Source of the DNA: an uncultured Gammaproteobacteria bacterium
GTDB taxonomy: Bacteria; Patescibacteriota; Microgenomatia; UBA8517
Direction: 5' to 3'
DNA length: 45,587 bases
NCBI GenBank assembly: GCA_964500695.1
Contig: CAZCNT010000004.1
Location: 1 to 45,587 of the forward strand
Of this stretch, positions 31,695 to 31,795 are shown piece after piece; within the stretch, counting starts at the first letter, position 1; the number at the start of each line of letters is the position of its first letter. The notes beneath the pieces were generated by a model that saw nothing but the letters and a program-made list of their open reading frames with translations, ran no database searches and was not told the origin of the DNA. A program made the translations under genes and the position numbers.

Positions 31695-31795
31695 AGCAGG
31701 TGAGAGGATTCGAACCTCCGGCCTTCAGACCACTCACACCGTATGTGCGTGTAAGTATAAAAATCTGATGCTCCACCAGTTTGAGCTACACCTGC
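31695..31795 (-). tRNA. tRNA-like gene (probably Lys TTT) with a 27-nt insertion in the anticodon loop
   Basis: GCAGGTG/CACCTGC, GCTC/GAGC, TCAGA/TCTGA closing a 34-nt loop, GGAGG-TTCGAAT-CCTCT. Confidence 0.8.

What the first reader, a model, noticed from the sequence alone, without database searches (positions are those of the whole stretch)
31695..31795. Bacterial tRNA with a 27-nt hairpin insert at the 37/38 position
Seen: the anticodon loop is 34 nt, TT-TTT-A-[TACTTACACGCACATACGGTGTGAGTG]-G. The insert (31731-31757) folds as ACTTACAC/GTGTGAGT, and removing it leaves a 7-nt Lys(TTT) loop. Established: 37/38 is the canonical archaeal/eukaryotic protein-spliced intron site, whereas bacterial tRNA introns are self-splicing and far longer. 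I see no clear bulge-helix-bulge, U73 is atypical for Lys, and the exact insert boundaries are ambiguous. Inference: a short intron removed by an unknown nuclease/ligase, a collapsed intron remnant, or a functional extended-arm tRNA mimic.
Basis: partly seen in the sequence, partly recalled or inferred. Interest (0 to 1): 0.75.

Follow-up and report, generated by a model that had tools for sequence, protein, structure and literature searches.

The report
Hairpin-extended, probably non-decoding tRNA look-alike
A tiny groundwater bacterium carries an extra tRNA-shaped gene whose anticodon is locked beside a built-in 27-base hairpin; it looks like a tRNA look-alike or relic that no longer reads codons, not like a spliced intron.

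Summary
Rfam scores a full tRNA at 58.5 bits with about 27 extra bases in the anticodon loop, and these form a 9-bp hairpin. The intron reading is poorly supported. I found no bulge-helix-bulge, no EndA and no RtcB, and the insert is too small for a self-splicing intron.

- **The gene is surplus.** A normal tRNA-Lys(UUU) lies elsewhere in the genome. The body carries U73 and scores closest to Thr/Gly tRNAs.
- **It sits in its own small unit.** A promoter-like site precedes it and a terminator-like hairpin follows. It shares the unit with a second odd tRNA-like gene (Asn-like, anticodon AUU).
- **One sister-genus genome has the same design.** A homologous array there holds a gene with an 89% identical body, an unrelated anticodon arm and a different 23-base insert. 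It folds the same way: stem, 5-6-base one-sided bulge, 9-bp hairpin.
- **Other array members are also abnormal.** They have closed, 8-base or U33-less anticodon loops.

My best reading is a non-decoding tRNA look-alike with a remodelled anticodon arm (0.42). The close rival is a dead extra tRNA copy scarred by tRNA-targeting mobile DNA (0.33). Earlier notes of this scan describe similar 37/38 hairpins in other Patescibacteria. No usable RNA data exist.

The parts
31817..31845 (-). Promoter-like site TTGACT-17-TATTAT. It ends 21 nt upstream of the tRNA-like gene.
   Evidence: The scan gives 10 of 12 consensus matches. In that 800-nt region 2 sites were found against 1.2 expected. Homologous arrays in G095 and G019 have TTGACA-17-TAGACT in the same position.
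31695..31795 (-). tRNA-shaped gene, which I call 'type A'. It has normal acceptor, D and T arms, U73 and a 44-nt anticodon arm.
   Evidence: Rfam RF00005 scores it at 58.5 bits. ARAGORN -i calls Lys(ttt) i(40,27).
31758..31762 (-). One-sided 5-nt bulge UUUUA, made of U33, the UUU 'anticodon' and A37.
   Evidence: Minimum-energy and centroid folds.
31731..31757 (-). 27-nt insert: a 9-bp hairpin with a 9-nt loop, stacked directly on the 3' strand of the anticodon stem.
   Evidence: -9.6 kcal/mol, with 13 of 2000 shuffles as stable. It is unique, with no second copy in the genome or in 139 genomes of the order at up to 3 mismatches.
31595..31694 (-). Structured 100-nt spacer between the two tRNA-like genes, closed by a stem of about 13 bp.
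   Evidence: The fold is -44.3 kcal/mol, z -5.58, with 0 of 200 shuffles as good. Spacers behind type A genes in G019 and G096 fold as closed domains in the same way.
31521..31594 (-). Second tRNA-shaped gene, 'type B'. It has an Asn-like body (U1-A72, G73) but the loop GUAUUAA, that is G32 and anticodon AUU.
   Evidence: Rfam scores it at 67.8 bits. ARAGORN calls Asn(att). The homologs carry GGG, AGG, CGA or UUA instead.
31440..31492 (-). Long hairpin downstream of type B.
   Evidence: Fold of 31352-31830(-).
31371..31427 (-). Terminator-like stem followed by a U run, closing the two-gene unit before ruvC.
   Evidence: Fold. The simple terminator scan did not list it; I think this is because the hairpin's loop is longer than the 3-8 nt the scan allows.
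30833..31351 (-). ruvC, the conserved downstream neighbour. I used it as the synteny anchor.
   Evidence: Pfam RuvC, E 3.8e-41. It is 83% identical in G019.
30493..30831 (-). Small free-standing GIY-YIG nuclease gene just behind ruvC. It is context for the mobile-DNA rival.
   Evidence: Pfam GIY-YIG, E 3.5e-17. It is one of 7 small GIY-YIG genes in the genome, of which 6 lie beside tRNA genes.

Best explanation
The gene is a surplus tRNA-shaped gene that keeps the upper half of a tRNA (acceptor, T and D arms). Its anticodon arm has been rebuilt into a rigid helix of about 15 bp: a 6-bp stem, a one-sided bulge UUUUA and a 9-bp hairpin.

**Shown**
- It lies in a two-gene unit with its own promoter-like site and terminator-like hairpin.
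- The same design exists in a sister genus with unrelated arm sequence.
- The neighbouring array genes also have anticodon loops that cannot decode normally.
- Normal tRNAs for the same anticodons exist elsewhere.

**Inferred**
- The RNA is made and end-processed like a tRNA, because the acceptor/T minihelix is intact.
- It cannot enter the ribosomal decoding site, because a 9-bp helix protrudes next to position 37 and the 'anticodon' is a bulge between stacked helices.
- It therefore acts, if it acts at all, outside decoding. It could be a tRNA look-alike that a tRNA-binding factor recognises, for example as a decoy for an anticodon-arm-directed nuclease.
- The insert is a permanent part of the RNA, not an intron.
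For: **Design conserved, sequence not**
- G000 and G095 type A genes are 51 of 57 identical outside the anticodon arm and 20 of 44 inside it.
- Both fold as stem + 5-6-nt 5' bulge ending UUA + 9-bp hairpin with no 3' bulge.
- Both hairpins are far more stable than shuffles: 13 of 2000 and 0 of 2000 shuffles reach them.

**Core cloverleaf under structural constraint**
- In 7 type-A-like genes, 112 of 112 cells of the acceptor, D and T stems pair.
- 8 of 16 pairs show changes on both sides, and 0 of 500 shuffles reach this.

**Abnormal anticodon arms are the rule in these arrays**
- 8-nt loop UUUUGUAA in G019 and G096.
- 8-bp stem with a 14-nt loop in G096.
- GCGCAGC loops without U33 in type C.
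- G33 in G096 type B and G32/A34 in G000 type B.

**Anticodon stems change fast but stay paired**
- Type C of G095 and G019 differ at 10 of 73 positions.
- 6 of these are three compensated anticodon-stem pairs.

**The genes are surplus**
- G000 has a canonical Lys(UUU), and an Asn(GUU) that carries a group I intron.
- G095 has canonical Asn, three Thr, Cys and Lys tRNAs elsewhere.

**Expression signals and synteny**
- Promoter-like sites lie upstream of the arrays in three genomes.
- A terminator-like hairpin follows the G000 unit.
- The order DnaE-L19-YraN-array-RuvC is shared by two genera.

**Not a repeated element**
- Each insert is unique.
Against: - **No usable RNA evidence.** The only contig from runs labelled metatranscriptomic (the tool marks them 'probably DNA') covers type B and part of the spacer, 31514-31671. 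It does not cover type A.
- **Rare and patchy.** Only 2 genomes of the 139 searched show a ~100-nt form, and that count rests on the 150 matches listed out of 278. Only 4 of 30 ruvC loci carry any tRNA gene.
- **Signs of decay in the partner gene.** Type B in the near-identical strain L135 has a 6-nt T loop and a different anticodon. Its discriminator base varies among homologs (G, A, U).
- **No partner protein found.** There is no conserved unusual neighbour, and no FemAB or MprF C-domain hit.
- **Strain identity does not show selection.** In the X9 strain no differences are listed between 31614 and 31882, so the flanking spacers are identical too. This looks like recent recombination, not selection on the insert.
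- **Mobile DNA is at hand.** Small GIY-YIG nuclease genes beside tRNA genes are common here. One sits directly behind the array in L135. This favours the relic rival.
Confidence: 0.42

Rival explanations
1. The gene is a relic of tRNA-targeting mobile DNA. It would be a dead, surplus tRNA copy left by the small GIY-YIG nuclease/tRNA cassettes that colonise tRNA genes in these bacteria. The hairpin would be an insertion or repair scar in the anticodon loop: an empty hairpin-ended cassette, or a change that destroys a nuclease target. The RNA would have no function.
For: - 6 of 7 small GIY-YIG genes of this genome lie beside tRNA genes.
- In strain L135 an inverted-repeat-flanked GIY-YIG mini-gene sits directly behind type B, where the window has an empty site. 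The window has one just behind ruvC.
- The arrays are patchy among relatives: 4 of 30 ruvC loci carry them.
- A strain variant in run X5 has a different array make-up.
- Type B shows degenerate features.
- Earlier notes of this scan report hairpins, one with a 9-bp inverted repeat, at 37/38 of broken tRNA genes in other Patescibacteria, sometimes with a nested tRNA or nuclease gene (e1-825933, e1-4931560, e1-873594). I did not check those notes.
Against: - Neither insert has a second copy. The G000 insert matches only its own site in 139 genomes at up to 3 mismatches and has no other copy in its own genome. The G095 insert is unique in the 3 genomes searched.
- The gene is a complete cloverleaf, not a fragment. 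No partial tRNA pieces were found at the six other GIY-YIG loci scanned.
- The whole anticodon arm, not only the insert, differs between the two homologs, yet both keep perfect helices.
- Promoter-like sites and compensatory stem changes persist across two genera.
- No GIY-YIG gene was noticed among the ORFs of 90 aa or more that I scanned in the three 11-kb array regions of the sister genus. Not every ORF was scanned.
Confidence: 0.33
2. The insert is a true short intron at 37/38 of a decoding tRNA. It would be cut out and the halves rejoined by bacterial enzymes not yet known, giving tRNA-Lys(UUU).
For: - Removing 27 nt leaves a 7-nt loop UUUUUAG with U33, UUU and A37.
- The homolog in G095 has its 23-nt insert at the same place.
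- The gene has expression signals.
- Unexplained short tRNA inserts have been reported in Lak megaphages (PMC6784885, passages read).
Against: - No BHB: there is a single 5-nt bulge with no opposing bulge 4 bp away.
- No EndA (PF01974) or RtcB (PF01139) match at E up to 1 in a 97.5%-complete genome, while the archaeal controls ring.
- There is no Rfam intron match at the site, whereas the same library finds the group I intron on contig C39.
- After excision the homologs would read different codons on one and the same U73 acceptor: UUU here, GUU or UGU in G095, and an 8-nt loop in G019 and G096.
- The genome's real Lys tRNAs have A73 and an unrelated body.
- No skipped joint over 31731-31757 appears in any of the 4 runs laid, but these are contigs and almost all DNA.
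Confidence: 0.1
3. The insert is a collapsed remnant of a self-splicing group I intron. Such an intron once sat in the anticodon loop and lost its core.
For: - Group I introns in tRNA anticodon loops occur in this genome (C39, Rfam 54.0 bits against a gathering score of 50).
- ARAGORN reports inserts of about 173-190 nt in several relatives' tRNA genes.
Against: - By eye, the ends of the 27-nt insert look unlike the ends of the C39 intron printed.
- A deletion relic would not be expected to give the same tidy 9-bp hairpin stacked on the stem in two genera with unrelated sequences.
Confidence: 0.05

Closest known systems
Archaeal/eukaryal protein-spliced tRNA introns at 37/38 (bulge-helix-bulge, EndA endonuclease, RtcB ligase). 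The family definition is recalled from general knowledge.
   Same: The position is one base 3' of the anticodon. The length is short (27 nt). Removing it restores a 7-nt loop.
   Different: The host is bacterial. There is no BHB, no EndA and no RtcB. Homologs differ in anticodon.
Bacterial group I introns in tRNA anticodon loops
   Same: The interruption is in a bacterial tRNA anticodon loop. The same genome has a real one on C39.
   Different: 27 nt is roughly a tenth of the size of such an intron. There is no Rfam match at the site and no catalytic core is possible.
Non-decoding pseudo-tRNAs / tRNA-like RNAs, e.g. Bacillus cereus tRNA-Other (PMC3399842; I saw only the search listing and the start of the abstract)
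   Same: It is a surplus, tRNA-shaped, chromosomally encoded gene. By that abstract, tRNA-Other does not function in translation.
   Different: Here the anticodon arm is extended by a hairpin. The gene sits in a small array whose members all have aberrant arms. No phenotype or expression data exist.
'Enigmatic' introns in tRNA genes of Lak megaphages (PMC6784885; passages read)
   Same: These are short, unexplained inserts in tRNA genes of a bacterial-world genome, found only when intron-aware tRNA prediction is used. They are conserved between variants.
   Different: Those are in phage, this is chromosomal. One Lak insert may itself encode a tRNA. I could not compare sequences, because the supplementary table was not opened.
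Free-standing GIY-YIG homing endonucleases in tRNA gene clusters (phage T4 SegB). This is recalled, and named in earlier notes of this scan; I did not read the paper.
   Same: Small GIY-YIG genes sit next to tRNA genes in this genome: 6 of 7.
   Different: There is no nuclease gene inside or directly beside this gene in the window. Cleavage specificity is unknown.

Membership tests
Canonical decoding bacterial tRNA-Lys(UUU) | Cloverleaf that scores above the Rfam tRNA threshold | tested here: met
   58.5 bits against a gathering score of 29.
Canonical decoding bacterial tRNA-Lys(UUU) | 7-nt anticodon loop with a free anticodon | tested here: not met
   The loop is 34 nt. In the predicted fold the anticodon is a bulge between stacked helices.
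Canonical decoding bacterial tRNA-Lys(UUU) | Lys-type body and discriminator, as in the genome's own Lys tRNAs (A73) | tested here: not met
   The gene has U73. The genome's Lys(UUU) and Lys(CUU) have A73 and an unrelated body. The best-scoring normal-length tRNAs to the gene's model are mostly Thr and Gly.
Protein-spliced (archaeal-type) tRNA intron | Insert at canonical position 37/38 | tested here: met
   The boundaries can slide by 1-2 nt.
Protein-spliced (archaeal-type) tRNA intron | Bulge-helix-bulge: two 3-nt bulges 4 bp apart at the splice sites | tested here: not met
   There is a single 5-nt bulge on the 5' side and none on the 3' side. The same holds in G095.
Protein-spliced (archaeal-type) tRNA intron | Splicing endonuclease (EndA, PF01974) and RtcB ligase (PF01139) in the genome | tested here: not met
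   0 matches at E up to 1 for both. The genome is 97.52% complete in 46 contigs, and the controls ring.
Protein-spliced (archaeal-type) tRNA intron | Spliced mature RNA | not testable with these tools
   No RNA holder covers the gene.
Group I self-splicing intron | Catalytic core recognisable by RF00028, with a length of about 200 nt or more | tested here: not met
   No match in 31400-31900 at E up to 1. Positive control: the C39 intron at 54.0 bits.
Miniature hairpin repeat / MITE | Several copies in the genome or in relatives | tested here: not met
   Only the gene's own site matches in the genome and in 139 genomes of the order at up to 3 mismatches. The G095 insert is unique in the 3 genomes searched.
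Non-decoding tRNA-like / pseudo-tRNA gene | Surplus to a canonical isoacceptor | tested here: met
   Lys(UUU) at C13:14597-14669. G095 has canonical counterparts too.
Non-decoding tRNA-like / pseudo-tRNA gene | tRNA top half kept and anticodon arm non-canonical, recurring in homologs | tested here: met
Non-decoding tRNA-like / pseudo-tRNA gene | Stable transcript with a function outside translation | not testable with these tools
   Only promoter-like and terminator-like signals, plus one doubtful contig over the neighbouring gene.
Debris of a GIY-YIG/tRNA homing cassette | Nuclease gene within or directly beside the interrupted tRNA copy | tested here: inconclusive
   In the window the nearest GIY-YIG gene is one gene away. 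In strain L135 one lies directly behind the array. None was noticed in the sister-genus regions.

The most novel reading that the evidence does not exclude
The 23-27-nt hairpins at position 37/38 could be a new class of bacterial tRNA intron. They would be recognised by their conserved geometry (stem, one-sided U-rich bulge that holds the anticodon, 9-bp hairpin). Enzymes unrelated to EndA/RtcB would remove them, so that a masked tRNA is switched on only after processing.
Probability: 0.08. Interest if true: 0.9.

Novelty: new variant of a known kind. Interest (0 to 1): 0.5.

Why it matters
If the RNA is made and kept, it is a tRNA look-alike that bacteria retain for something other than decoding. 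Its anticodon arm changes much faster than its body, which is what a contest with anticodon-arm-directed nucleases or homing endonucleases would produce. If it is a relic, it records how mobile DNA remodels tRNA genes in ultra-small bacteria. It also warns annotators that intron-aware tRNA finders will call such genes 'tRNA-Lys with intron'. If it is spliced, it would be the first short, non-self-splicing tRNA intron in bacteria. Six literature searches found no description of such inserts in candidate-phyla-radiation tRNA genes.

Tried and rejected
- **RNA evidence.** The run search listed no holder on record as RNA. Two runs labelled metatranscriptomic (the tool marks them 'probably DNA') gave one 158-nt contig over 31514-31671 only. 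This says nothing about type A.
- **Near-identical DNA in 60 relatives.** Only T-arm-sized matches of 36 nt or less came back.
- **Order-wide Rfam tRNA listing.** Only the best 150 of more than 4000 matches were shown, so lengths could not be surveyed. I replaced it with a custom model.
- **Exact D-arm word in public collections.**
  - Genome contigs gave 5 hits, of which one is a real homolog (L128).
  - Metagenome contigs gave 9 hits, of which 2 are homologs (L135, L136).
  - Viral contigs gave 3 hits, all coding sequence.
  - The remaining tRNA hits are an archaeal-type tRNA-Tyr with a 60-nt intron.
  - The type A 3'-end pattern gave 0 hits in viral contigs.
- **Users of aminoacyl-tRNA outside translation.** FemAB and the MprF C-domain gave no match in the genome.
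- **Hairpins or tRNA fragments at the other GIY-YIG loci.** I found nothing resembling the insert and no partial tRNA matches.
- **Assembly artefact.** Rejected, because independent contigs carry the same sequence.
- **Archaeal origin of the genome.** Rejected on bacterial gene content, a bacterial SSU fragment and no archaeal SSU match.
- **Antisense ORF 31600-31851(+), 83 aa.** Not followed. It overlaps both tRNA-like genes and is most likely spurious.

Full report
**What is there**

The window is contig C4 of a 752,771-base genome in 46 contigs, 97.52% complete. Its gene content is bacterial. Around the site lie DnaE, ribosomal protein L19, YraN, RuvC, HolA and GatCAB. A bacterial SSU fragment is present and there is no archaeal SSU match. 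A named public record that carries the homologous array (L128) is titled Candidatus Woesebacteria.

The feature lies on the minus strand.
- Rfam's tRNA model matches 31695-31795(-) end to end at 58.5 bits, with about 28 unaligned bases in the anticodon loop.
- ARAGORN calls it only when introns are allowed, as tRNA-Lys(ttt) with a 27-nt insert.
- The predicted fold is a normal cloverleaf except for the anticodon arm. That arm is a 6-bp stem, a one-sided 5-nt bulge UUUUA (U33, the UUU triplet, A37), then a 9-bp hairpin with a 9-nt loop stacked directly on the 3' strand of the stem.
- The insert alone folds at -9.6 kcal/mol, and 13 of 2000 shuffles are as stable.

**Is it an intron?**

The archaeal/eukaryal type needs a bulge-helix-bulge and an EndA-type nuclease plus a ligase.
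- The fold has one bulge only.
- Six-frame searches of the whole genome with the EndA and RtcB families give no match at E up to 1, while the archaeal control genomes ring.
- Rfam finds no intron family at the site. It does find a bona fide group I intron (54.0 bits, gathering score 50) in another tRNA gene of the same genome, on contig C39. By my reading of the printed sequence, that gene is the genome's tRNA-Asn(GUU).
- 27 nt cannot hold a ribozyme core.
- The genome has a normal tRNA-Lys(UUU) (C13:14597-14669) and a Lys(CUU). Both have A73 and a body unrelated to this gene, which has U73.
- A covariance model of the gene scores normal Thr and Gly tRNAs of relatives best.

**Relatives**

Near-identical DNA searches in 60 relatives found only T-arm-sized matches. 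Using ruvC as an anchor, 4 of 30 loci carry tRNA genes within 1.5 kb. A pattern for the gene's 3' end, run over 139 genomes of the order, picked out one sister genus (G019, G095, G096) at 0-1 mismatch. There the same synteny holds, with sodA and a DUF5652 gene added. The site holds 3-4 tRNA-shaped genes of three body types, which I call A, B and C.

*Type A* is the homolog of the gene in question.
- G095's copy has an identical D arm and is 51 of 57 identical outside the anticodon arm, but only 20 of 44 inside it.
- It carries a different 23-nt insert at the same place.
- It folds in the same way: 5-6-bp stem, 6-nt one-sided bulge UGUUUA, and a 9-bp hairpin with a 4-nt loop. 0 of 2000 shuffles fold the insert as well.
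- Its 'anticodon' would be GUU or UGU, depending on the register.
- G019 and G096 have no insert. They have an 8-nt loop UUUUGUAA that folds shut into a 7-bp stem with a tetraloop. G096 has a further copy with an 8-bp stem and a 14-nt loop.

*Type B* is the window's neighbour gene at 31521-31594.
- It has an Asn-like body, with anticodon AUU and G32 here.
- The homologs carry GGG, AGG or CGA (the last with G33).
- A closely related strain carries UUA.

*Type C* is Cys-like, with loops that lack U33.

Across 7 type-A-like genes the acceptor, D and T stems pair in 112 of 112 cells. 8 of 16 pairs changed on both sides. Anticodon stems change faster but stay paired. Type C of G095 and G019 differ at 10 of 73 positions, and 6 of these are three compensated stem pairs.

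G095 has normal Asn, three Thr, Cys and Lys tRNAs elsewhere, so the array genes are surplus there too. A custom model of the 101-nt gene found a ~100-nt form in only 2 of the 139 genomes searched: 129.3 bits here and 76.8 bits in G095. That count rests on the 150 matches listed out of 278. Neither insert has a second copy anywhere searched.

**Strain level**

A metagenome contig (L135) is 96.2% identical over 1929 nt and carries the identical 101 nt.
- Its type B differs at about 9 positions, all but one in loops. These include a one-base deletion in the T loop.
- By my count the surrounding roughly 440 aligned columns differ at 2 positions.
- By my own arithmetic, not a tool result, such a loop bias has a chance of about 0.007 if changes fell evenly.

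L135 also has an inverted-repeat-flanked GIY-YIG mini-gene inserted directly behind the array.

Contigs of DNA runs X5 and X9 carry the insert unchanged. One X5 contig shows a differently composed array. The lack of listed differences in the X9 strain extends over both spacers (31614-31882). It therefore looks like recent exchange and does not show selection on the insert.

**Expression signals**

- A TTGACT-17-TATTAT site ends 21 nt upstream of the gene.
- TTGACA-17-TAGACT sites precede the arrays of G095 and G019.
- The 100-nt spacer behind the gene is a closed, very stable domain (z -5.58). So are the spacers behind type A genes in G019 and G096.
- A stem plus U run ends the two-gene unit before ruvC.
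- No run on record as RNA holds the region. Two doubtful 'metatranscriptomic' runs give one contig over type B and part of the spacer only.

**Reading**

The insert is best seen as a built-in part of a surplus tRNA-shaped gene, not as an intron. Two explanations remain close.

*(a) A retained, non-decoding tRNA look-alike.* Its upper half is under constraint and its anticodon arm needs only to be a long helix.
- For: the recurrence of the same stem-bulge-hairpin geometry with unrelated sequence in two genera, the compensatory changes and the promoter-like sites.
- Against: rarity, the lack of RNA data and the lack of any partner protein (FemAB and the MprF C-domain are absent).

*(b) A dead extra tRNA copy scarred by tRNA-targeting mobile DNA.*
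- For: 6 of 7 small GIY-YIG nuclease genes of this genome lie beside tRNA genes, one sits behind the array in L135, and the arrays are patchy.
- For: earlier, unchecked notes of this scan describe hairpins at 37/38 of broken tRNA genes in other Patescibacteria, sometimes carrying a nested tRNA or nuclease.
- Against: the uniqueness of both inserts, the intact cloverleaf and the perfect helices.

A DNA-level contest with anticodon-arm-directed nucleases could explain the fast-changing but paired arms under either view. This is inference.

**Literature**

Six full-text searches found no description of short hairpin inserts in tRNA genes of candidate-phyla-radiation bacteria.
- The nearest printed parallel is the 'enigmatic' tRNA introns of Lak megaphages (PMC6784885, passages read).
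- Another is the non-decoding pseudo-tRNA of Bacillus cereus (PMC3399842, listing and start of the abstract only).
- PMC10714607 (passages) mentions only rRNA introns in these bacteria.
- I did not open the supplementary tables of the Lak paper, which list the intron sequences. They could bear on the comparison.

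Noticed in passing
window 31521-31594 (-): The neighbouring tRNA-like gene has an Asn-type body (U1-A72, G73) but anticodon AUU and G32. It is the only intron-free 'Asn' gene ARAGORN finds in the genome. Its anticodon differs in every homolog: GGG, AGG, CGA, and UUA in strain L135.
   Followed up: partly
G000:C39:3161-3432 (locus L062 3185-3386): A tRNA gene on another contig is interrupted by a group I intron of about 200 nt (Rfam 54.0 bits). By my reading it is tRNA-Asn(GUU). 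ARAGORN misreads it as Thr(agt).
   Followed up: partly
window 30493-30831 (-); also G000 C1:41508-41711, C5:41625-41825, C16:2440-2661, C21:699-896, C40:1950-2156, C4:46661-46864: There are seven small free-standing GIY-YIG nuclease genes. Six lie beside tRNA genes: five within about 125 nt and one about 340 nt away. This looks like tRNA-linked homing cassettes.
   Followed up: partly
L135 about 1935-2230: In a 96%-identical strain a GIY-YIG mini-gene of about 290 nt, flanked by inverted repeats of about 12-14 bp, is inserted between the tRNA-like pair and ruvC. The window has an empty site there.
   Followed up: no
window 31595-31694 (-): The 100-nt spacer between the two tRNA-like genes is an unusually stable closed domain (z -5.58). 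Spacers behind type A genes in G019 and G096 share the design and begin UUUGGUGG or UUUAGUGG. There is no Rfam match.
   Followed up: partly
L112:1081-1165 (+); L087 c[1050,1123]: Two further odd tRNA-shaped genes occur in relatives. One is 85 nt, with an 8-bp anticodon stem and a 14-nt loop (G096). The other has an 8-nt loop UUGAUGUA next to ruvC (G027).
   Followed up: no
window 31500-31931, run X5 (record 6): A strain variant contig has two type-B-like segments. It replaces 31589-31872 (type A plus spacer) by 107 other letters, so array composition varies within the population.
   Followed up: no
G000:C1:37879-37953: The genome has a tRNA-Ile with anticodon UAU, and so does G095.
   Followed up: no
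L127, L133, L140: The same 19-base D-arm word occurs in a tRNA-Tyr gene with a 60-nt insert at the same position. One of these records, L127, is titled Candidatus Woesearchaeota archaeon. This looks like an ordinary archaeal intron and a chance sharing of the D arm.
   Followed up: no
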